DNA from: Chloroflexota bacterium
GTDB lineage: Bacteria; Chloroflexota; Limnocylindria; Limnocylindrales; CSP1-4
DNA: 64,000 nucleotides
Direction: 5' to 3'
Assembly (NCBI GenBank): GCA_005883615.1
Contig: VBEC01000014.1
Span: forward strand, 48,497-112,496
A program made the translations under genes and the position numbers. This document shows, piece after piece, positions 7,541 to 60,753 of the stretch; the first letter of the stretch is position 1; each line of letters begins with the position of its first letter. The notes under the pieces were generated by a model. The model had not been told where the DNA came from. It worked only from the letters and a program-made list of their open reading frames with translations, and searched no databases.

Positions 7541-8461
7541 GTGCGCAGCCACCTCGTCCGCACGACTGCCGCGCTGACCATCGCCGTCGGGCTGGGCGCG
7601 ACCCTGCCCGTTGTCCACGACCGTATCGATGCGCCACTGCCCGCCGCAGCGGTTCTCTCGGTCGAGACGGGACCATCTCCGTCGGCTGGCGCCTCCCCAG
7701 CACCCGCCCTCGACATCGCCAGGACAAGTGGTACGGTCGCCGATCGGGCCGGGGCCAACGACCCAAACCAAGGCCGGCTGGCAGACCCGGCCCTGCGCGG
7801 CCGAATCCCGCCGTCGCCCGCAGATCTCCTGGGCTATGTCTGGCCGCTCTCCCATGGCCGCCTCACCCAGCCGTTCGGCTTCAGCCCATGGGGGACCCTC
7901 GTCGTTGGCGGCCGGCCCTTTCACGATGGGCTCGATCTCGCGACCTTTTGCGGTGATCGGATCGTGGCCGCTCACGACGGTGTCGTCCTCGCCGCGGGCC
8001 GGCGCTCGGACGCCTTCGTCGGCTGGCTCGGCTCACTCGATGCGTATCGTGCGAAGCTCGACATGGAGCACCGCTGGGGCGTGCTGGCGATCATCGTCGT
8101 CATCGGCGACGGCAACGGATACCGCAGCCTGTACGTCCATCTCAGCCAGACGGTGGTTCGCCCTGGACAGAAGGTAAAGGCCGGCCAGCTGATCGGATAC
8201 GAGGGGGCGACCGGCTTTGCAACAGGTTGCCATCTGCACTACAGCCTGTTCAGTCCGTTCGAGACCGCCACGATGGAGCTCGATCCGAAGATCGCGAAGA
8301 CGACGCTCTTGCCGGCGGAGGAAATCGCCCGGATCGACCCTCTCCTCGTCCTGCCGCGTCCGTCGGCGCCGACGGCCGTCTCAGACGGAGGCGTCGACCA
8401 GTCGCCGGTAGCGCCGGCCGATCAGAGCATTCGCAGGGATCCGCGCGAGCGACCGACTTAG
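7541..8461 (+). CDS. M23 family metallopeptidase (LytM-like)
   Basis: HDGLDLA ... GATGFATGCHLHYSLF zinc-binding motifs of the M23/LytM domain. Its C-terminal tail overlaps the convergent HD gene by about 80 nt. Confidence 0.8.
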   Translation: MRSHLVRTTAALTIAVGLGATLPVVHDRIDAPLPAAAVLSVETGPSPSAGASPAPALDIARTSGTVADRAGANDPNQGRLADPALRGRIPPSPADLLGYVWPLSHGRLTQPFGFSPWGTLVVGGRPFHDGLDLATFCGDRIVAAHDGVVLAAGRRSDAFVGWLGSLDAYRAKLDMEHRWGVLAIIVVIGDGNGYRSLYVHLSQTVVRPGQKVKAGQLIGYEGATGFATGCHLHYSLFSPFETATMELDPKIAKTTLLPAEEIARIDPLLVLPRPSAPTAVSDGGVDQSPVAPADQSIRRDPRERPT

Positions 8462-9820
8462 GACGAGCGGCACGCCGCCGTTTCGCGCCTCGAGCGCCAG
8501 CAGGGAATCGGCCGCGGACGCGTCTGCCGGCCGGGCATCGACGATCGCAAGGTCGATCGCGATGCGGCCCGGCTCCGACTCTCCGAGCTCGGTGAGCCCG
8601 GCGACGGGCAGCTCGCCGTCGTACTCGAGCCGGACTTCCGCCTCCGCGCGCCAGCGGGGACGCCGGAGCAGGATCGCGCGCCAGCCATCAGCAACCTCCG
8701 GGGTCACCCGCCCGTCACCCGGCTGCGGGTCCCGCGAGATGAACTCACCGCGCGACCAGAGCGCCGCCTGGTGGAGCAGTGCGTACTCATCAAGGTCGGC
8801 GTAGTCCGACAGGCGGTCGGCCGGTGACCCGTCCCCGAAGATTGCCCGGATGGACGGCGCGAAGACCTCGGCCAGGTCGAGGTCGATGGCTCGCACCGTC
8901 CGGTGGAAATACACCTGCTGGTACATGAACCGACGTGCCGTGAGGAACATCTCCAGGGCACCCAGTCCGGGCTCGTAGAGAGTCAGGCCCTGATCGGAGA
9001 TGAATGTGTACCGCCGCAGCCGCTCCACGTCGACCGGCCCGACTGCCACTCCTGTGAAGTAGGCATCCCGCCGGACGTAGTCGAGGTTGTCGACGGTGAA
9101 TACGCCGGACAACAACGGCTGCAGCCATCTGACCCAGCGGGGCATGGCCGGATCGACCAGAGCCGGCTTGGAGACCAGGAACGAAACCCAGGATGGATCA
9201 ATCGTCTGTCCATCCGCGAAGACATCACGATCCCGCGCGGTTCCCGGCGCCCGGCGCAGCTTACGGATCAGAGGCCCAAGCTCGCGTTCGATGATCAGCT
9301 GGCTGAGGTCCTCATGGGAAAGCCGCTTGTCGACGCGCCGCCGGGTATCGGGAGGTGCCGGGAAGGCGGCCAGCACGTGGTTGTCGAAAAAATGGGCGAA
9401 CGGGCCGTGCCCGACATCATGCAGGAGCCCGGCGACGCGGAGAGTCTCGACGACCAGTCCCTCTGATGGCAGCGGCGCCTCGCCCGCCTCCGCCAGCGCG
9501 CTGCCCAAGCTCGGATAGAGGTGGCGTGCCCACAGGCCCGCCTCGTGCATGACGCCGAGACCGTGCGTGAAGCGTGAGTGCTCGGCGGTTGGGAATACCC
9601 AGCGCGCGCTCTGCAGCTGGCTGATCCGTCGCAACCGCTGGAGCCAGGCGGCGTCGAGGAGGTCCTCTTCGGCGGCCTCCTCGAGCGGCAGGCCGGCCAA
9701 CCGTGCTTCGTCTCTCGAGAGGCGTTTGGAGAGTTCGATGTAGCCGTGGATCGGGTCGCTGATGAGGTTCACGGCCGTGAAGGCGTGACGGCCCATCGAG
9801 ACCCTCGGGTCTGTTTCCAA
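8381..9820 (-). CDS. HD-domain dNTP triphosphohydrolase-like protein (Dgt/SAMHD1 family)
   Basis: HSRFTHGLGV ... LLHDVGHGPFAH motifs of the HD phosphohydrolase / dGTPase family; 479 aa. Confidence 0.8.
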   Translation of the reverse strand: METDPRVSMGRHAFTAVNLISDPIHGYIELSKRLSRDEARLAGLPLEEAAEEDLLDAAWLQRLRRISQLQSARWVFPTAEHSRFTHGLGVMHEAGLWARHLYPSLGSALAEAGEAPLPSEGLVVETLRVAGLLHDVGHGPFAHFFDNHVLAAFPAPPDTRRRVDKRLSHEDLSQLIIERELGPLIRKLRRAPGTARDRDVFADGQTIDPSWVSFLVSKPALVDPAMPRWVRWLQPLLSGVFTVDNLDYVRRDAYFTGVAVGPVDVERLRRYTFISDQGLTLYEPGLGALEMFLTARRFMYQQVYFHRTVRAIDLDLAEVFAPSIRAIFGDGSPADRLSDYADLDEYALLHQAALWSRGEFISRDPQPGDGRVTPEVADGWRAILLRRPRWRAEAEVRLEYDGELPVAGLTELGESEPGRIAIDLAIVDARPADASAADSLLALEARNGGVPLVLSRSLARIPANALIGRRYRRLVDASV

Positions 9821-9874: not shown

Positions 9875-10726
9875 TCAAGGCACCCAGACGCGCAGAGAGC
9901 TGCTCCAATAGGACAGGTTACCGCGGTTGTCGCGCGACCTGACGCGTACGGCGTAGCTGTGGCCGTGCGCTCGCCCGGCGAGGCTGATCGATCGGCCCGT
10001 CGTTCCGCTTCGGATCAGCCGCCAGGTCCCGCTGTCCACGCGGTAGAGGACGTCGAAGTTCCTGAGACCGGCGGTATGGGTCTGAAGCAGTGGGTCCCAG
10101 CCCCTCCACCCGAACCAGATCGTTGTGCCGCTTCGCCCCGAGCCCGTCATTCTGGCGCCGGGCCGCGTATGGTCCAGGGACTCGGTCAGAACGATCGACG
10201 CCCACGTGGTGCGGTTCGACGAGCGATAGGCGACTCCCACCCCCACGTAGTTGAAGGACGTGCTCATCAGGAGCGCCCAGTGCTCCGCGCTGTGCTTCCA
10301 CATTCCGTAGAGGTACCCGGCCGCCGTGGTCGTGTAGGGGTAACTGGTCATGCCGATCGCCTCACCCCAGCGATACCACTGCATTCCCCAGGCGCTCAGG
10401 GTCGTACCGATATTGCCGCCGGCGACCTGGTGGCTGAGCATGTTCGCCGCAGCAAGGTTGGCGGCTCTGGAGCCGGCGAGGTCATTCAGGCGGCCGTCCA
10501 TGCGTAGCGGACGAAGGCCCCGGGCGACCCGGTCCCGGTTGATCCAGCCGAAGAGAGTGTTTTCAAATGAGCTCGGCGCGCTCGCGGACGTCGAGCTTGC
10601 CGTTGCGCCGGATGTAGCCGCCAATGCCGGGGCTGCGAACCCCGCCCCGGCGATGGCCAGAAGGCCGGCCAGCGCCAGAGAGACGAGCAGGGCCAACGGG
10701 GACGTGGTGCGTTGGTAGTGGCTCAT
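9875..10726 (-). CDS. Secreted CAP (SCP/PR1-like) domain protein
   Basis: Start chosen at MSHYQRTT with a signal peptide (LLAIAGAGFAAPALA). CAP domain (WINRDRVARGLRPLRMDGRLNDLAGSRAANLAAANMLSHQ) followed by a beta-rich C-terminal domain. Confidence 0.7.
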   Translation of the reverse strand: MSHYQRTTSPLALLVSLALAGLLAIAGAGFAAPALAATSGATASSTSASAPSSFENTLFGWINRDRVARGLRPLRMDGRLNDLAGSRAANLAAANMLSHQVAGGNIGTTLSAWGMQWYRWGEAIGMTSYPYTTTAAGYLYGMWKHSAEHWALLMSTSFNYVGVGVAYRSSNRTTWASIVLTESLDHTRPGARMTGSGRSGTTIWFGWRGWDPLLQTHTAGLRNFDVLYRVDSGTWRLIRSGTTGRSISLAGRAHGHSYAVRVRSRDNRGNLSYWSSSLRVWVP

Positions 10727-10993
10727 GCGCGGAGGTACCTCCTTGCGGGGACGCGCGCCCACCCCACAGGGGCACGCGTCGGGCATCTGCCCGGAGGGTT
10801 CCGACCGCAGTAACGGAAGCGGCGTCGCCGGCGCCGGAAAGGCGGGCCCGGTCTGGGGGCTGGGGCACCACGGAAAGCCGGAACGACTCCGGAAAGGAGC
10901 GCTGCGCTCCGAGTCGCAGGCCTAGGGTATCGCAGGTCGCGACCCCAAAATGGACCAGACGCGCAGGCACCAGTGCGCGGGCAGGGTCGCGGG

Positions 10994-11983
10994 TCAGCGG
11001 TAGAGGTCGGCAGCAGTCCTCAGCCGCTGGGCGATCTCGGTCCGAAGATCCGCCGGCTCGAGGACCTCCACGTCGGGCCCCCACGACAAGATCCAGAAGC
11101 GGATCTCGATGGTCCCGGCAACCGACGCGCGCCAGATGAGGCTGCCGTCAGGCTGGCGCTCGAGCTCCTGGCTCGGGTGCCAGGTGGCCTCGGCCACGCG
11201 GGACGCGACCGAGGGCGCGAAGTGGAGTACCACCTCCGTCTCGGGTTGGTCCGCAATGATGTCCCAGGCGCGTGCGAAGGCGTCCTCGATGACATCGGGC
11301 GGCGCCTCGAAGATCTGCGGCGTCACGTCGACCGACAAGATGCGTTCGATCTTGAACGTCCGAATCGCCCCGCGGGCCTCGTCGAAACCGATCAGGTACA
11401 GAGCATGCGTCGTGGACGATGGCTCGATGAGATAGGGATGGACGCGGGCCTCCCGTGGCGGCCGCCCGGGATCATAAGCCGCGGGGTCGTAGCTGAGCCG
11501 GACGACCCGGCGATCTGCCCAGGCCTGGGTCAGCAGTCGGACGTGCCCACGGAGGCGCTCGTCGAGAGGCCGGCGGGCCATGACCTCCAGGGTCCTCGCG
11601 ACGTGCTCGGCCAGCACCGGCGGCAGCCCGACCGCAACCTTCTGGAAGGCCCCCGCAAGGTCGGGATCGTATTCGTCCGCGAAGCGGGCCATCAGGCGCG
11701 CCGACAGGAACACTGCCATCGCCTCGGCCAGGGTGAGCTTCAGGGGCGGCAGGAAGCCCTTCTCGGTGACACCCCAGCGTCCCTCGTCGCTCCAGAGCGG
11801 GACCTCCATCTCGCCTTGCAGCGATTGAAGATCCCGGTAGACCGTCCGTCGCGACATCCCGATGGCCGTGGCGATCTCTTCCGGTCGGGCACCCTGCTCG
11901 CCGCGCTCTTCGAGAAATCGGAGCTCGCGGTAATAGCGGCCTGCGCGATCCCGCTTTGCGTTAGCTCGCTCGCGAACGTCCAT
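10994..11983 (-). CDS. WYL-domain transcriptional regulator (HTH-WYL-WCX; PafBC/YafY-like)
   Basis: N-terminal HTH (IATAIGMSRRTVYRDLQSL), central WYL-like domain and C-terminal extension; 329 aa. Confidence 0.8.
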   Translation of the reverse strand: MDVRERANAKRDRAGRYYRELRFLEERGEQGARPEEIATAIGMSRRTVYRDLQSLQGEMEVPLWSDEGRWGVTEKGFLPPLKLTLAEAMAVFLSARLMARFADEYDPDLAGAFQKVAVGLPPVLAEHVARTLEVMARRPLDERLRGHVRLLTQAWADRRVVRLSYDPAAYDPGRPPREARVHPYLIEPSSTTHALYLIGFDEARGAIRTFKIERILSVDVTPQIFEAPPDVIEDAFARAWDIIADQPETEVVLHFAPSVASRVAEATWHPSQELERQPDGSLIWRASVAGTIEIRFWILSWGPDVEVLEPADLRTEIAQRLRTAADLYR

Positions 11984-11996
11984 GCAGGCTTTCCTG

Positions 11997-13181
11997 TCAG
12001 GTCGCCGGCGGCTCGATGACCACGACCTGGTCGCGATCGCTCGCCGTTATCGTGAGGCGGACCGTCCCCTGGATGCCGTTCGTGCCCAGACCTGCCGCCT
12101 CTCCGTTCAGGGCACCGGAGACCTGCCCGATCTCCGAGTCGGCGAAGACCCAGAAGTCGAGCTGACCGCGCCATCGATGCACGTCCGGCACCGGCGCGAA
12201 CCAGGCCAGCTCGGGGACGGCCGCCGCGAATGTTCGACCGTCCACTGCCACCCGGCAGTGGCGAGCCGGGGCACCCTCGACGAATTCCAGGCCGTGCTCC
12301 TCCGCGACGGCACGATTGCCGGCCGAGAGAGCAACTTCCATCAGCCGCCGATCGACCGTGCGATCGTCGAGACTCGCCGCGTCGGCGCGCTCCCAGGGGG
12401 CACCCGGGCGCTTCACCCAGGCCGCGTCGCCAACGCGCGCGGCGCCGAACTGCCCGAAGTTCCGGCTCGTGGCGACTTCCGCCATCCAGCGAAGGTCCCC
12501 TTCCGAGCGGATGCCCGAAAGCTCGACAGAGCCCAGCGATCGGCCATCGACGTCGGCCGACAGGCTGAGCGAGATGCGGGCGGTATGACCCGCGCGCACG
12601 GCGCCGTTGCACGCCGGCGGCTGGCGGTTGGGTCGGGTCGGCCCGAACGGCGAGGCGACGCTCGGCCGATCGCGCAGGGCCACCTCGTTGGCGATCGCGA
12701 CGCTCGTGAAGAACGACCCGCTGAAGGCCGTGAAAAGCACGGCGATCAGGGCGGCACGTCGCAGCCGGACGGCCCGCGGGGACCGTGGCCCGAGCGTTCT
12801 CTCGGCGAGACCCAGACCGGCATAGAGGCTCGTCCCGGCGAGCGCCAGAACCCACGGGTAGGCGCTCTCAGAGGACGGCAGCAGGGTCTGCCGCCCGCCA
12901 GCCAGCAGCTGGCTCAGGATCCCGGCGATGGATGGGATCAGCAGGAGCGTGCTGCCCAGCCCGAGCCAGACCATTCCGGCAAAGGCACGGATCCCCCGGG
13001 CGGTGGGCGGCCAGCGCAGCGCGCAGACGCTGATAACGATCGGAACGAGGCTGGCCAGACCGACCAGCTGGTCGACCGGGCCGCCCGGCTGATACACGAG
13101 CAACACGAGACCGGCGGTGAGCGTCCAAAGCGCCGTCAGCACCGCAGCGATGAGGCGGGATTCGAAGATCCGGACGCGCAT
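11997..13181 (-). CDS. Hypothetical polytopic membrane protein with large extracytoplasmic C-terminal domain
   Basis: Start placed at the internal ATG (MRVRIFESRL) at 13179-13181. About 6 TM helices then a roughly 230 aa soluble domain. The upstream in-frame extension to 13793 is Arg-rich non-coding-like sequence. Confidence 0.5.
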   Translation of the reverse strand: MRVRIFESRLIAAVLTALWTLTAGLVLLVYQPGGPVDQLVGLASLVPIVISVCALRWPPTARGIRAFAGMVWLGLGSTLLLIPSIAGILSQLLAGGRQTLLPSSESAYPWVLALAGTSLYAGLGLAERTLGPRSPRAVRLRRAALIAVLFTAFSGSFFTSVAIANEVALRDRPSVASPFGPTRPNRQPPACNGAVRAGHTARISLSLSADVDGRSLGSVELSGIRSEGDLRWMAEVATSRNFGQFGAARVGDAAWVKRPGAPWERADAASLDDRTVDRRLMEVALSAGNRAVAEEHGLEFVEGAPARHCRVAVDGRTFAAAVPELAWFAPVPDVHRWRGQLDFWVFADSEIGQVSGALNGEAAGLGTNGIQGTVRLTITASDRDQVVVIEPPAT

Positions 13182-13427
13182 CGGATGGAGTCTACGCGGC
13201 TGCCGGTCGCCGCACGACCGTAGCGCGGGCCCCATGCTTCGAACCACGTAGATGTGTACCGGAAGTACCAGGTGGCATAGGACCTGAGGGCTATCGATAG
13301 TCGCGGGGGGGAATCCGACAGTTGGCCCCTCAGCAACCGGATCGAAAGGTTCGGCCGGGTACAAGAAAGCCCTAGAAATCGACGGTCCGCGAGAGCGGTA
13401 CTGGGAGATAGGACAGGAACGTGAGCC

Positions 13428-13796
13428 ATGGCAGGCAAGGTGCGCAGTCGAGGTACACGGGGAACCGCGCGATCGTCTCGGGTCGCTCCGTCCTGGCCGG
13501 TGCTCGCGGGGGCCTCCGAGGACGTGTCTGGCTCCACAACCGGCACCCTGCCCCCGATGCGGGCCTCGTCGACGGAGCCGGCTCTTCGGGCCTTGCCGAC
13601 TCGTCCGACCTACCAGATGCTTCTGATGCGGGGGCTGGCGCCTGAAGAGGCAGCCAACCTGACCGCGTTCCTGTCGGGCATTCATGTCGGGGAGCAGAGC
13701 TGGAAGCTCAAGGAGATCAACCAGCTCCTCTTCCTGAGAAACCTCAATCGCGCAGGTCGCTTCGGGCCTGAAGACGGCAAGTCGCAGGTCCACTGA
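13428..13796 (+). CDS. Hypothetical small protein (Arg/Ser-rich disordered N-terminus, helical C-terminus)
   Basis: ORF preceded by AGGA RBS-like sequence inside a lower-GC intergenic region. C-terminal part YQMLLMRGLAPEEAANLTAFLSGIHVGEQSWKLKEINQLLFL has protein-like composition. Confidence 0.35.
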   Translation: MAGKVRSRGTRGTARSSRVAPSWPVLAGASEDVSGSTTGTLPPMRASSTEPALRALPTRPTYQMLLMRGLAPEEAANLTAFLSGIHVGEQSWKLKEINQLLFLRNLNRAGRFGPEDGKSQVH

Positions 13797-13982
13797 CTCA
13801 GACCCGCGGTCACCAATTGAATATCCAGCCTGCAGCGGCGTATCCCTAGCTACCCGCCACTGCAGTCAACCTACGAAGCGGCGCCGTACCTCCTCCCGGC
13901 GCCGCTTCGCTTTACCCATTCGTGGCACCCGATCCCGGCGGAGTCCCGGCACGAGGACCTAAGCGCCCGTACCATCCATCCC

Positions 13983-25340: not shown

Positions 25341-25955
25341 TCAGGCGCCCGCACCCTGCGCGGCGGCCGGGCCGCCATGCCCCACGCCGGCGGCCGACTC
25401 GCCGGTGGCAACGGGGTTGGCCTGAGCGACACGATTGGCCGCGACCTGCTCCGGTCGGTCCTCGGCGATGGGGGCGACGACGGCGTTGGCCAGGGTTCGG
25501 AGAGTAGCAGGAGGAACTGGAAATACCGCCGTCGCGGTTCCGGCAGCCGCCCATACGACTTCGAACCGCCCCAGGTCCGGATCCATGATCACGCGCAGAG
25601 GCCTGGAGTGGCCGATTGGCGGGATCCCACCGATGCTGAAGCCGGTCAACTCATGGGCTTCGCGCGCAGTCGCCCGGCGAACCTCCGGCTCGGCCGTCAC
25701 CGCTGCCAGACGGCCCAGATCCACACGGTTCGGTCCGGAGACCAGGCAGATGATTGGCTCGAGTCCGCCGTCCTCGCCAGGCGCCACGAATACCACGGAC
25801 TTGACGATCTGGCCGAGGTGCGCGCCAACCGCCGCAGCAGCCTCATGTGCCGTGTGGGTCGACTCATCGAAGAATCGAATCCTGAGCTCGACGCCCTTGC
25901 GAGCGGCTGCCTCCAGCACCCGTTCGATGGTGGGCTGAAGCGGGAGCTCGGGCAC
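25341..25955 (-). CDS. YbaK/EbsC-type aminoacyl-tRNA deacylase domain protein
   Basis: FSIGGIPPIGH and KSVVFV motifs of the YbaK / ProX editing domain. Confidence 0.8.
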   Translation of the reverse strand: MPELPLQPTIERVLEAAARKGVELRIRFFDESTHTAHEAAAAVGAHLGQIVKSVVFVAPGEDGGLEPIICLVSGPNRVDLGRLAAVTAEPEVRRATAREAHELTGFSIGGIPPIGHSRPLRVIMDPDLGRFEVVWAAAGTATAVFPVPPATLRTLANAVVAPIAEDRPEQVAANRVAQANPVATGESAAGVGHGGPAAAQGAGA

Positions 25956-26059
25956 GGCCCGAGTCTAGCATGGGCGACCCTTCGCTCCGCCGCCCGCCGC
26001 ACGCCGCACGCCTCACAGTCGAGGACGAGCCAGCGACGAGCGAGCGGTACGATCGGCCG

Positions 26060-59734: not shown

Positions 59735-59823
59735 CGTCCGACTATGCCGGCCTCCCCGGTCCGGTGGCCCCTCCGAAATCGCGAAGAGTGGGGTGCGTGA
59801 CCTCTCGCCGGTAGACTCGAAGC

Positions 59824-60753
59824 GTGCGCATCGTTTCCTTGCTTCCGTCGGCCACGGAGATCGTGTGCGCCCTCGGTCTGGCCGATCAGCTCGTGGGAAT
59901 CACGCATGAATGCGATTTCCCCGCGGAGGTCGTCGGCAAGCGGGTCCTGACACGTTCCGCGCAGCCCGCAACCGGCGCGACGAGCCGTGAGATCCACCGC
60001 CGAGTGACCGACGCCGTTCATGGCGGTTCGTCGATCTACGAGCTGGATGAAACGGCGCTCGCCGAGTTGAAACCGGACCTGATCCTTACCCAGGAACTGT
60101 GTCAGGTGTGTGCGGTCAGCTATCGCGAGGTCAACGAGGCTGCCCGGTCGATCGCGGGCGACGTGACGGTGGTCTCGCTGGAGCCGACCAGCCTCGAAGG
60201 GATCTTCAACACGATCTCGACAGTCGGGGCGATGACGTCGAAGGAGACTCGGGCCGTGCGCCTCCTCGAGAGGCTGCGCGGCCGCCTCGGTCGGTTCGAA
60301 AGCAGAGTGCAGAAGCGCCGCGAACAGGGGTACACGGCCCCGAGGGTCGTGGGGCTGGAATGGCTGGACCCGCCCTTCGCGGTCGGGCATTGGGTCCCCG
60401 AACAGATCCGCCGGGCGGGCGGCTGGGATCTCCTGGGCTCCGAGGGTGAACGCTCCGTCGAGACGACATGGGAGGCAGTTCGCGACGTCGACCCCGAGAT
60501 GATCGTCCTGATGCCGTGCGGCTTCCATCTTGAGGACACCGTCACGGAGTGGGCGCGGACACCACGGCCGGGCTTCTGGACGCAGATCGAGGCAGTCCGC
60601 CGCGGCAGTGTCTTCGCCGTTGACGGGTCGGCCTACTTCAGCCGGCCGGGCCCGCGAGCCATCGACGGGATCGCCATGCTGGCCGAGATCTTCGATCCGA
60701 ACGCTTTCGTCGACACCTCGCCAGCGGGGAGCTGGACGCCGCTCCAATCCTGA
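59824..60753 (+). CDS. BtuF-like periplasmic-binding-protein fold (cobalamin/iron-siderophore binding) protein, apparently without signal peptide
   Basis: MRIVSLLPSATEIVCALG ... ITHECDFP N-terminus typical of class III PBP cobalamin-binding proteins. Confidence 0.65.
   Translation: MRIVSLLPSATEIVCALGLADQLVGITHECDFPAEVVGKRVLTRSAQPATGATSREIHRRVTDAVHGGSSIYELDETALAELKPDLILTQELCQVCAVSYREVNEAARSIAGDVTVVSLEPTSLEGIFNTISTVGAMTSKETRAVRLLERLRGRLGRFESRVQKRREQGYTAPRVVGLEWLDPPFAVGHWVPEQIRRAGGWDLLGSEGERSVETTWEAVRDVDPEMIVLMPCGFHLEDTVTEWARTPRPGFWTQIEAVRRGSVFAVDGSAYFSRPGPRAIDGIAMLAEIFDPNAFVDTSPAGSWTPLQS

What the first reader, a model, noticed from the sequence alone, without database searches (positions are those of the whole stretch)
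10994..13181. WYL-domain regulator paired with a polytopic membrane protein of unknown function
The WYL regulator (HTH-WYL-WCX) lies 14 nt downstream of a 6-TM protein with a large extracytoplasmic domain, on the same strand. WYL regulators commonly sense nucleic-acid or nucleotide ligands and control stress, DNA-damage or defence islands. The neighbourhood also contains an HD dNTPase-like enzyme, a CAP-domain secreted protein and an M23 peptidase. This could be a small envelope-stress or phage-response module.
Basis: inference. Interest (0 to 1): 0.5.

Follow-up and report, generated by a model that had tools for sequence, protein, structure and literature searches.

The report
WYL regulator operon with lipid-binding membrane protein
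A WYL-type gene regulator is encoded with a previously undescribed membrane protein, whose outer domain resembles mycobacterial lipid carriers, in an operon inherited throughout an uncultured soil Chloroflexota class; it is a core gene pair, not a phage-defence island, and its role is untested.

Summary
A 394-aa membrane protein (11997-13181, minus strand) is followed 13 nt later by a 329-aa HTH-WYL-WCX regulator (10994-11983).

- **Conservation:** the pair is adjacent in 79 of 80 Limnocylindria species loci. It is also adjacent in 15 of 17 loci of a distant lineage (membrane protein about 35% identical) whose other neighbours differ.
- **Transcription:** the operon appears leaderless, with TAGACT 6-7 nt before the start codon in 91 of 95 loci.
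- **Downstream genes:** in half of the main-lineage species the regulator's stop abuts the start of a SAMHD1-family HD enzyme. The CAP gene is an insertion between them.
- **Candidate operator:** a conserved 38-bp element (13259-13296, core GTACC-N9-GGKAC) lies upstream of a divergent, conserved 122-aa gene.
- **Defence reading:** no defence, phage or PafBC-type features were found.

Function remains inferred. The regulator is probably nucleic-acid-sensing, and the membrane protein is probably a co-expressed envelope lipid-handling effector. Interest is moderate to low, as a new variant of a known kind.

The parts
11997..13181 (-). Membrane protein gene (394 aa). Residues 1-170 form five predicted transmembrane helices, N-terminus inside. 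Residues about 180-394 form an extracytoplasmic LprG/LppX/LolA-fold domain with invariant C191 and C309.
10994..11983 (-). HTH-WYL-WCX transcription factor gene (329 aa), 13 nt after the membrane protein gene, with an AGGAAAG ribosome-binding site at 11989-11995.
   Evidence: Pfam HTH_11, WYL and WCX. Best solved relatives are DriD and PafBC at E 1e-8 to 1e-7. Family conservation of WYL-domain residues.
13189..13194 (-). -10 box TAGACT, 7 nt upstream of the membrane gene ATG (13181). Inferred promoter of a leaderless operon mRNA.
   Evidence: TAnnnT lies 6-7 nt (rarely 8-9) before the start codon in 91 of 95 loci, and is TAGACT in 81. All six positions are 99-100% conserved in 79 main-lineage loci. 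No conserved -35 or -26 element.
13259..13296 (.). Conserved intergenic element. Plus-strand consensus is CG[C/G]AAGTACC-N9-GG[G/T]AC-N4-GGG[T/C]CATCG. The pseudo-palindrome GTACC-N9-GGKAC is at 13265-13283 and the invariant ATCG at 13293-13296. Candidate operator and -35 region of the divergent small gene.
   Evidence: Found in about 71 of 76 main-lineage loci. Positions are 85-100% conserved while flanking intergenic sequence is not. Unique in the window and in each locus. No spacer covariation, so it is a DNA site and not an RNA hairpin.
13317..13322 (+). -10-like hexamer GACAGT of the divergent small gene. The inferred transcription start is near 13329, giving a 5' UTR of about 99 nt.
   Evidence: Alignment columns 66-71 have A at position 2 in 96% and T at position 6 in 99% of 71 loci.
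13428..13796 (+). Divergent conserved small gene (122 aa). It has an Arg-rich disordered N-terminus (MAGQARRGTRG), a low-complexity linker and a three-helix C-terminal domain. Function unknown.
9875..10726 (-). CAP/YkwD-domain secreted protein gene (283 aa counted from MSHYQRT). A variable insertion between the WYL and HD genes.
   Evidence: Pfam CAP. Gene call of 283 aa on the source contig. Present between WYL and HD in 38 of 74 loci.
8381..9796 (-). SAMHD1-family HD phosphohydrolase gene (471 aa counted from M9). The last gene of the operon in the main lineage.
   Evidence: Pfam HD plus HD_assoc_2. PDB 2hek 4.8e-28, EF1143 (2o6i) 4.4e-24, SAMHD1 about 1e-17. Its start abuts or overlaps the WYL stop in loci that lack CAP. 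Absent downstream of WYL in the distant lineage.

Best explanation
This is a vertically inherited operon specific to the class Limnocylindria, not a mobile module.

**Transcription.** A promoter with only a -10 box (TAGACT) produces a leaderless mRNA.

**Products.**
1. A membrane protein anchored by five helices. It displays an LprG/LppX/LolA-fold lipid-binding domain on the outer face of the membrane.
2. A single HTH-WYL-WCX transcription factor.
3. In the main lineage, a SAMHD1-family HD phosphohydrolase. A CAP-domain secreted protein is inserted before it in half of the species.

**Proposed mechanism.** The transcription factor most likely works like its characterised relatives. As a dimer, its WYL domain binds a nucleic-acid ligand (most probably single-stranded DNA). 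This changes how its winged-helix domains bind a pseudo-palindrome of about 19 bp. The best candidate site is GTACC-N9-GGKAC, centred about 55 bp upstream of the inferred start of the divergent 122-aa gene. The regulator would therefore control that gene and possibly its own operon.

The membrane protein is a co-expressed effector that handles a lipid, glycolipid or lipoprotein at the membrane surface.

**Shown:** gene structures, the fold, conservation of the pair, the promoter boxes and the conserved element.
**Inferred:** the ligand, which protein binds the element, and the cargo and role of the membrane protein.
For: - **Domains:** the HTH, WYL and WCX domains are all present.
- **Ligand residues:** four DriD ssDNA contacts align to conserved residues. 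Tyr168, Tyr192, Arg204 and Trp206 correspond to Y170 (at least 90% conserved) and to Y196, R208 and F210, which are at least 98% conserved across 86 family members (DriD contacts from PMC9186387).
- **Precedent:** the characterised wHTH-WYL-WCX regulators PafBC, DriD, SiwR and CapW sense ssDNA; CapW's ssDNA-contact residues are conserved in BrxR (PMC11662680, PMC10693628, PMC11804915).
- **Site geometry:** DriD binds a 7-N7-7 pseudo-palindrome and BrxR a palindrome of about 20 bp, comparable to the conserved 19-bp site here.
- **Fold:** the C-terminal domain has the LprG/LppX fold by two independent methods.
- **Pair conservation:** adjacent in 79 of 80 main-lineage and 15 of 17 distant loci, although the downstream genes and the small gene differ between the lineages.
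- **Operon structure:** gaps between the membrane gene and the WYL gene are mostly 20 nt or less, and the WYL stop abuts the HD start.
- **Leaderless promoter:** seen in 91 of 95 loci.
Against: - No experiment or expression data exist.
- The whole region, including flanking housekeeping genes, is syntenic in the main lineage. Adjacency there is therefore weak evidence of a functional link.
- The conserved element co-occurs with the small gene and is absent from the distant lineage. In that lineage the membrane gene and the SAM_HAT gene are separated by as little as about 33 bp, containing only two -10 boxes. The element may therefore be just that gene's promoter, bound by something else.
- No second copy of the element was found in 64 kb or in about 1.5 Mb of related loci, so no regulon could be defined.
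- DriD Lys202 and Ser172 are not matched in the alignment, and the CapW/BrxR RWHVR motif is absent.
- Relation to LprG is at fold level only, at 13-16% identity.
Confidence: 0.4

Rival explanations
1. Envelope-sensor model. The membrane protein is the signal input. Its LolA/RseB-like outer domain would detect a mislocalised lipid or lipoprotein and control the WYL regulator through its short cytoplasmic segments. This would resemble how RseB/MucB gate anti-sigma factors. The pair would then be an envelope-stress switch.
For: - The pair persists across lineages while all other neighbours change.
- The cytoplasmic N-terminus (MRVRxFELRL) and the WPPxARG loop are highly conserved.
- Envelope enzymes lie nearby: M23, CAP and a polysaccharide deacetylase.
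Against: - The cytoplasmic segments are very short (about 9, 12 and 17 residues), leaving little surface to hold a transcription factor.
- No known WYL regulator is controlled by a protein partner, and the WYL ligand residues are conserved.
- Conservation of the N-terminus may instead reflect membrane insertion or leaderless translation.
Confidence: 0.2
2. Global DNA-damage regulator model. The WYL protein is the lineage's DriD/PafBC-like master regulator of a LexA-independent damage response. Its operon partners would simply be members or bystanders of that regulon, with the HD dNTPase-like enzyme tuning nucleotide pools. The membrane protein would have no special relationship to it.
For: - The gene is single-copy, core and well conserved (median 60% identity, higher than the membrane protein's 52%).
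- ssDNA-contact residues are retained.
- It is translationally coupled to a SAMHD1-family enzyme in many species.
- Its closest solved relatives are the damage regulators DriD and PafBC.
Against: - No repair genes and no further copies of the candidate site occur in the 64-kb window or within 8 kb either side in 80 genomes.
- The HD link is absent in the distant lineage, whereas the link to the membrane protein is kept.
- The membrane gene's promoter has no PafBC/SiwR-type -26 element.
Confidence: 0.25
3. Phage-defence module. A BrxR/CapW-like WYL repressor would guard a toxic effector, with the membrane protein and/or the HD dNTPase depleting nucleotides or damaging the membrane during infection.
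For: - WYL regulators often accompany defence systems (PMC9122601, PMC9122588).
- dGTPase-type HD enzymes can act in defence. There is a weak PADLOC dGTPase match (E 0.0057) and a match of the regulator to the N-terminal third of a 'Cas3c' model.
Against: - The locus is syntenic and vertically inherited in 346 species, flanked by housekeeping genes, with no integrases or defence genes.
- The HD protein is about 76% identical across the class, which is typical of a core enzyme.
- The RWHVR motif of CapW/BrxR is absent.
- The Cas3c match covers only the fused WYL part of that model (positions 24-316 of 1009).
- There are no relatives on 2.9 million viral contigs.
Confidence: 0.03

Closest known systems
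DriD (Caulobacter crescentus), a homodimeric wHTH-WYL-WCX activator of an SOS-independent DNA-damage response
   Same: - Same three-domain architecture and similar length (329 against 327 aa), encoded by a single gene.
- Best PDB match (E 1.3e-8).
- Tyr168, Tyr192, Arg204 and Trp206 equivalents are conserved.
- DriD binds a pseudo-palindrome of similar span (7-N7-7) at promoters that lack a -35 hexamer.
   Different: - Sequence similarity is confined to the WYL-WCX half.
- The candidate site sequence is unrelated (GTACC-N9-GGKAC against ATACGAC-N7-GTCGTAT).
- DriD is not encoded with a membrane protein or an HD enzyme.
- Neither the ligand nor the targets were tested here.
PafBC and SiwR (Actinobacteria), WYL activators that act at a -26 element of TAnnnT promoters
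   Same: - WYL-WCX core.
- GC-rich hosts whose promoters consist mainly of a TAnnnT -10 box (leaderless in the case here).
- SiwR controls adjacent genes, as proposed here.
   Different: - PafBC is a heterodimer or fusion of two WYL proteins and is linked to Pup-proteasome genes. Here there is one gene, no paralogue in 64 kb and no paf genes nearby.
- No conserved -26 element lies upstream of the membrane gene's -10 box.
- The 'proteasome accessory factor B' labels in JGI are automatic names.
CapW/BrxR, WYL repressors of CBASS and BREX defence systems
   Same: wHTH-WYL-WCX dimer-type architecture. They bind palindromes of about 20 bp in the promoter region next to their own gene.
   Different: - No defence genes are adjacent.
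- The RWHVR motif is replaced by THALYLIG.
- The locus is core and syntenic rather than part of a variable island.
LprG, LprF and LppX lipoproteins of mycobacteria (LolA-like lipid/glycolipid carriers; per the PDB entry titles, LprG binds PIM and triacylglyceride)
   Different: - Only 13-16% identity, with no Pfam LppX_LprAFG match.
- Anchored by a conserved five-helix membrane domain instead of a lipid-modified cysteine.
- From general knowledge, LprG is encoded with a transporter (Rv1410c). Here the partner is a transcription factor.
RseB/MucB, LolA-like periplasmic sensors that gate anti-sigma factors
   Different: - A weaker match than to the carrier proteins.
- No sigma or anti-sigma genes are present.
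- The partner is a WYL factor that has its own ligand-binding domain.

Membership tests
wHTH-WYL-WCX transcription factors | N-terminal (winged) helix-turn-helix DNA-binding domain | tested here: met
   Pfam HTH_11 E 6.9e-6, residues 21-71. The RTVYRDL recognition region is conserved across 86 homologues.
wHTH-WYL-WCX transcription factors | WYL (Sm-like) domain followed by a WCX dimerisation domain | tested here: met
   Pfam WYL 9.3e-12 (residues 147-220) and WCX 1.8e-20 (residues 248-325).
wHTH-WYL-WCX transcription factors | Conserved ssDNA-contacting residues on the WYL surface | tested here: inconclusive
   Y170, Y196, R208 and F210 align with DriD Tyr168, Tyr192, Arg204 and Trp206 and are conserved (Y170 at least 90%, the others at least 98%). 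DriD Ser172 and Lys202 are not matched, and the alignment upstream of residue 190 has low confidence.
wHTH-WYL-WCX transcription factors | Ligand (ssDNA) binding that switches operator binding | not testable with these tools
   Requires purified protein (fluorescence polarisation, EMSA).
PafBC-type regulators | Two WYL proteins (PafB and PafC, tandem or fused) that form a heterodimer | tested here: not met
   A single gene. A family HMM finds no second copy in the 64-kb window, and gene calls within 10 kb either side show none.
PafBC-type regulators | Linkage to pafA / Pup-proteasome genes | tested here: not met
   The neighbours are ABC transporters, SAM_HAT, GATase, M23, DUF1003, CAP and HD.
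PafBC-type regulators | Conserved -26 element upstream of a TAnnnT -10 box at target promoters | tested here: not met
   Upstream of the membrane gene's TAGACT box, no position from -45 to -1 exceeds 0.61 bits in 79 loci. Only this one promoter could be examined.
CapW/BrxR defence-associated repressors | Encoded next to a defence system (CBASS, BREX or another) | tested here: not met
   PADLOC finds no defence protein among the six neighbours, apart from WYL-domain models and a 0.0057 dGTPase hit. The context is housekeeping.
CapW/BrxR defence-associated repressors | RWHVR motif around the WYL triplet | tested here: not met
   The corresponding sequence is T-H-A-L-Y-L-I-G, with no flanking arginines.
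LppX_LprAFG / LolA-like lipid-binding proteins | Half-barrel beta-sheet with helices (LolA-like fold) | tested here: met
LppX_LprAFG / LolA-like lipid-binding proteins | Sequence-family membership (Pfam PF07161 or a PDB sequence match) | tested here: not met
   No Pfam or NCBIfam hit at E 0.01 or below. A profile search of the PDB finds nothing at E 10 or below.
LppX_LprAFG / LolA-like lipid-binding proteins | Lipoprotein signal peptide with a lipobox cysteine | tested here: not met
   The N-terminal 170 residues form five conserved membrane helices instead.
LppX_LprAFG / LolA-like lipid-binding proteins | Hydrophobic cavity that binds acylated ligands | not testable with these tools
A binding assay is needed.
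SAMHD1-family HD dNTP triphosphohydrolases (neighbouring gene) | HD domain plus the HD-associated region, with similarity to EF1143/SAMHD1 | tested here: met
   Pfam HD 3.7e-7 and HD_assoc_2 1.4e-6. PDB 2hek 4.8e-28, 2o6i 4.4e-24, SAMHD1 about 1e-17. Enzyme activity was not tested.

The most novel reading that the evidence does not exclude
The conserved pair could be a new kind of signalling unit that ties a WYL transcription factor to the cell envelope. There are two versions. In one, the LprG/RseB-like outer domain senses a lipid or lipoprotein signal and gates the regulator. In the other, a nucleic-acid-sensing WYL factor drives envelope lipid remodelling together with nucleotide-pool control (through the SAMHD1-like enzyme) as one damage response. 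All WYL regulators characterised so far act in DNA-damage or phage-defence circuits with no envelope component.
Probability: 0.15. Interest if true: 0.65.

Novelty: new variant of a known kind. Interest (0 to 1): 0.35.

Why it matters
WYL regulators are known from DNA-damage responses and phage-defence islands. Here one is fixed in the core genome of an abundant, uncultured soil and freshwater class. It is encoded with a membrane-anchored lipid-carrier-fold protein that belongs to no described family, and in most members with a SAMHD1-type enzyme.

If the link is functional, it would extend the physiological reach of WYL sensing to the cell envelope. It would also give a first functional handle on a lineage-specific membrane protein family that has only about 420 sequence clusters among 1.8 billion.

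The locus also documents promoter design in this class: leaderless transcripts driven by a -10 box alone. That is useful for annotating these metagenome-assembled genomes.

Without cultured hosts or expression data the practical impact is modest.

Tried and rejected
- **Known RNA families:** Rfam (gathering threshold) finds only two tRNAs in the window and nothing in the intergenic regions.
- **RNA structure in the intergenic region or the small gene's 5' UTR:** RNAalifold gives no consensus on two alignments. The spacer of the GTACC...GGKAC repeat shows no significant complementarity beyond shuffles. The hairpin idea was dropped.
- **Further copies of the conserved element:** none in the window or in about 100 related loci. 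A recurrent GTACTTCC about 800 nt away is a coding motif of the SAM_HAT gene.
- **A -35 or -26 element for the operon promoter:** none found. The sigma-70 consensus scan finds nothing, and the two terminator-like hits lie inside coding regions.
- **Sequence identification of the membrane protein:** Pfam, NCBIfam, PADLOC and a PDB profile search were all negative.
- **The small 122-aa protein:** no Pfam, NCBIfam or PDB sequence match, and no structural match.
- **Defence or phage origin:** PADLOC and viral-contig scans were negative.
- **The PADLOC 'Cas3c' hit of the regulator (E 8e-66):** it covers only model positions 24-316 of 1009, the fused WYL module, so it is not evidence of a cas gene.
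- **Two distant-lineage contigs without WYL after the membrane gene (L090, L100):** both are short, and one has 0.56x coverage with a fragmentary gene. They were treated as uninformative.
- **AlphaFold-database fold library:** unavailable.
Full report
**1. Observation.** The window is GC-rich, about 68%. On the minus strand a 329-aa ORF (10994-11983) carries the Pfam domains HTH_11, WYL and WCX (E 6.9e-6, 9.3e-12 and 1.8e-20). It sits 13 nt downstream of a 394-aa ORF (11997-13181) that matches nothing in Pfam or NCBIfam.
- The 13181 start is correct. More than 250 homologues have the same length of about 394 aa and the same N-terminus, MRVRxFELRL.
- The 13-nt spacer (CAGGAAAGCCTGC) contains a ribosome-binding site.
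- Independent gene calls on the source metagenome contig (147 kb, ENA ERZ28573540) give the same genes. They place the CAP start at 10726 (283 aa) and the HD start at 9796 (471 aa).

**2. The membrane protein.** An AlphaFold2 model built on 24 homologues is confident (mean pLDDT 86).
- Residues 2-170 form five long helices. Hydropathy finds four strong segments and one weaker one (residues 104-130).
- Lys/Arg counts (3, 0, 3, 1 and 6 in successive loops) place the N-terminus inside and the C-terminal domain outside.
- The two outside loops (YRPGGPxD and QTLLPSxEAxYPW) and two cysteines of the C-domain (C191, C309) are invariant.
- Foldseek independently ranks LprG first (E 1.1e-7, probability 1.0), followed by LprF, LppX and other LolA-superfamily proteins, including MucB.
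- Identity is only 13-16%, and a profile search of PDB sequences finds nothing. The relationship is therefore one of fold, not of family.
- The family is narrow. An exhaustive HMMER search of 1.84 billion cluster representatives returns 420 hits. The named ones are almost all Limnocylindria/Chloroflexota metagenome-assembled genomes.

**3. Is the pairing real?** A scan of one genome per GTDB species found relatives in 346 species, and I examined the best 80 loci.
- The order in essentially all of them is: small gene (opposite strand), then the membrane gene, the WYL gene, CAP (sometimes) and HD, with a convergent M23 gene at the end.
- WYL follows the membrane gene in 79 of 80 loci. The exception is a contig that ends right after the membrane gene.
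- Flanking housekeeping genes (an amino-acid ABC transporter, GATase, SAM_HAT) are often syntenic as well. Adjacency within this lineage alone is therefore weak evidence of a link.
- I then fetched a more distant lineage, with the membrane protein 33-40% and WYL about 50% identical. WYL still follows the membrane gene there in 15 of 17 loci with enough downstream sequence.
- In that lineage the small gene and HD are absent, and convergent transhydrogenase genes follow WYL instead. The two exceptions are short or low-coverage contigs.
- The two-gene unit is therefore the conserved core. HD, CAP and the small gene are lineage-specific additions.

**4. Operon anatomy.**
- In 91 of 95 loci a TAnnnT box (TAGACT in 81) lies 6-7 nt upstream of the membrane gene's ATG or GTG. 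In the window it is at 13189-13194. This implies a leaderless transcript.
- All six positions of TAGACT are 99-100% conserved in 79 loci. Nothing upstream is conserved, so there is no -35 or -26 element.
- The design is general in this genome. TAGACT-N6-GTG marks the first start codon of two other long ORFs, and the SAM_HAT gene has TACCAT-N7-ATG.
- Gaps between the membrane gene and the WYL gene are mostly 20 nt or less.
- In the 36 main-lineage loci without CAP, the HD start abuts or overlaps the WYL stop, which suggests translational coupling.
- CAP sits between WYL and HD in 38 of 74 loci.
- HD belongs to the SAMHD1/EF1143 family and is the most conserved gene of the cluster, at a median identity of 76%.

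**5. Conserved cis element.** One is there.
- It is a 38-bp block at 13259-13296, with consensus CG[C/G]AAGTACC-N9-GG[G/T]AC-N4-GGG[T/C]CATCG on the plus strand.
- The AC of the second arm and the ATCG are 100% conserved, while the surrounding intergenic sequence is not.
- Twenty nucleotides downstream lies a -10-like hexamer (GACAGT, 13317-13322), with A at position 2 in 96% and T at position 6 in 99% of loci.
- These features place the ATCG near -35 and the pseudo-palindrome GTACC-N9-GGKAC near -55 of the divergent small gene.
- The element's distance to the small gene's ATG is 117-190 nt. Its distance to the membrane gene's start is 19-219 nt. It therefore belongs primarily to the small gene's promoter, although in a few species it overlaps the operon promoter.
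- The spacer shows no covariation, and RNA folding of the region gives nothing. It is a DNA site.
- It is unique in the window and in each related locus.
- The distant lineage, which lacks the small gene, lacks the element. There the membrane gene and the SAM_HAT gene can be only about 33 bp apart, with two back-to-back -10 boxes between them.
- The span of the site resembles the DriD site (7-N7-7) and the BrxR palindrome of about 20 bp. That the WYL protein binds it is an inference.

**6. The regulator.**
- Its best solved relatives are DriD (E 1.3e-8) and PafBC (1.5e-7), aligned only over the WYL-WCX half. It is not an orthologue of either.
- It is a single gene with no paralogue in 64 kb and no Pup/proteasome genes nearby. 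It is therefore not PafBC-type, despite automatic 'pafB' labels on homologues.
- The CapW/BrxR RWHVR motif is absent; the sequence here is THALYLIG.
- Residues aligned with DriD's ssDNA contacts (Tyr168, Tyr192, Arg204 and Trp206, corresponding to Y170, Y196, R208 and F210) are conserved across 86 family members: Y170 in at least 90%, the other three in at least 98%.
- The characterised members PafBC, DriD, SiwR and CapW sense ssDNA, and CapW's contact residues are conserved in BrxR. A nucleic-acid ligand is therefore the best guess.
- PADLOC matches only WYL-domain models, including the N-terminal third of a 'Cas3c' model. No defence protein is found among the neighbours. No relatives of either gene occur on viral contigs.

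**7. Interpretation.**
- **Best supported (confidence about 0.4):** a core, leaderless operon that co-expresses an envelope lipid-handling membrane protein, a ligand-sensing WYL regulator and, in most species, a SAMHD1-type enzyme. The regulator probably acts at the conserved pseudo-palindrome next to its operon.
- **Rival, sensor role (0.2):** the membrane protein acts as an RseB-like sensor that gates the regulator.
- **Rival, global role (0.25):** the regulator is a DriD-like global damage regulator, and its operon partners are incidental.
- **Rival, defence (0.03):** a phage-defence module. This is effectively excluded.
- None of the functional steps is shown experimentally.

**8. Novelty and score.** The regulator is a new member of a well-known family, and the membrane protein is an undescribed family with a known fold. 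Their conserved coupling has no counterpart in the literature I could search: no paper mentions both the WYL domain and LprG. I rate it a new variant of a known kind, with an interest of 0.35. It is a solid, well-conserved association with a concrete candidate operator. However, functional coupling rests on gene order, and the host lineage is uncultured.

Noticed in passing
window 13189-13194 (-), 13970-13975 (+), 25953-25967 (-), 59812-59826 (+): Leaderless gene design appears to be general in this genome. A TAnnnT box (TAGACT or TACCAT) lies 6-7 nt before the first start codon of the membrane gene, the SAM_HAT gene and two other long ORFs (25341-25955 on the minus strand, 59824-60753 on the plus strand). 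TAGACT-N6-RTG occurs twice, against 0.13 expected by chance.
   Followed up: partly
window 13428-13796 (+): A conserved 122-aa protein of unknown function. It has an Arg-rich disordered N-terminus (MAGQARRGTRG...), a low-complexity linker and a confidently predicted three-helix C-terminal domain. It has no Pfam, PDB or fold match. It is present only in the main lineage, always divergent from the operon and next to the conserved element.
   Followed up: yes
window 13875-13908 (+): A perfect 12-bp inverted repeat (GAAGCGGCGCCG, a 10-nt loop, then CGGCGCCGCTTC) followed by GCTTT, between the small gene and the SAM_HAT gene. It looks like a terminator, but the consensus scan missed it because of the long loop and the short T run.
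   Followed up: no
window 9797-9820 and loci L004-L080 (WYL/HD junction): The true HD start is the ninth codon (M) of the longest ORF. In about 36 related species that lack CAP, this ATG overlaps or abuts the WYL stop codon (gap of -1 to +10 nt). This suggests translational coupling of the regulator and the SAMHD1-family enzyme.
   Followed up: partly
window 9875-10993: The CAP/YkwD-domain gene and its 267-nt upstream spacer behave as an insertion into the operon, present in 38 of 74 related loci. The spacer contains a TACCCT box and a TCGCGA palindrome, which I did not analyse across species.
   Followed up: no
window 10994-11983 (-): The regulator matches positions 24-316 of the 1009-position PADLOC 'Cas3c' model at E 8e-66, far better than it matches any solved WYL protein. 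Some Cas3 proteins therefore carry an N-terminal HTH-WYL-WCX module closely related to this family.
   Followed up: no
window 8381-8461: The convergent HD gene (minus strand) and M23 peptidase gene (plus strand) overlap by 81 nt at their 3' ends.
   Followed up: no
loci L083-L096 (distant lineage), intergenic region upstream of the membrane gene: The SAM_HAT gene and the membrane gene are divergent and leaderless, with their -10 boxes back to back. In L093 the start codons are 33 nt apart and the two boxes are separated by 2 bp. This is an extremely compact bidirectional promoter.
   Followed up: partly
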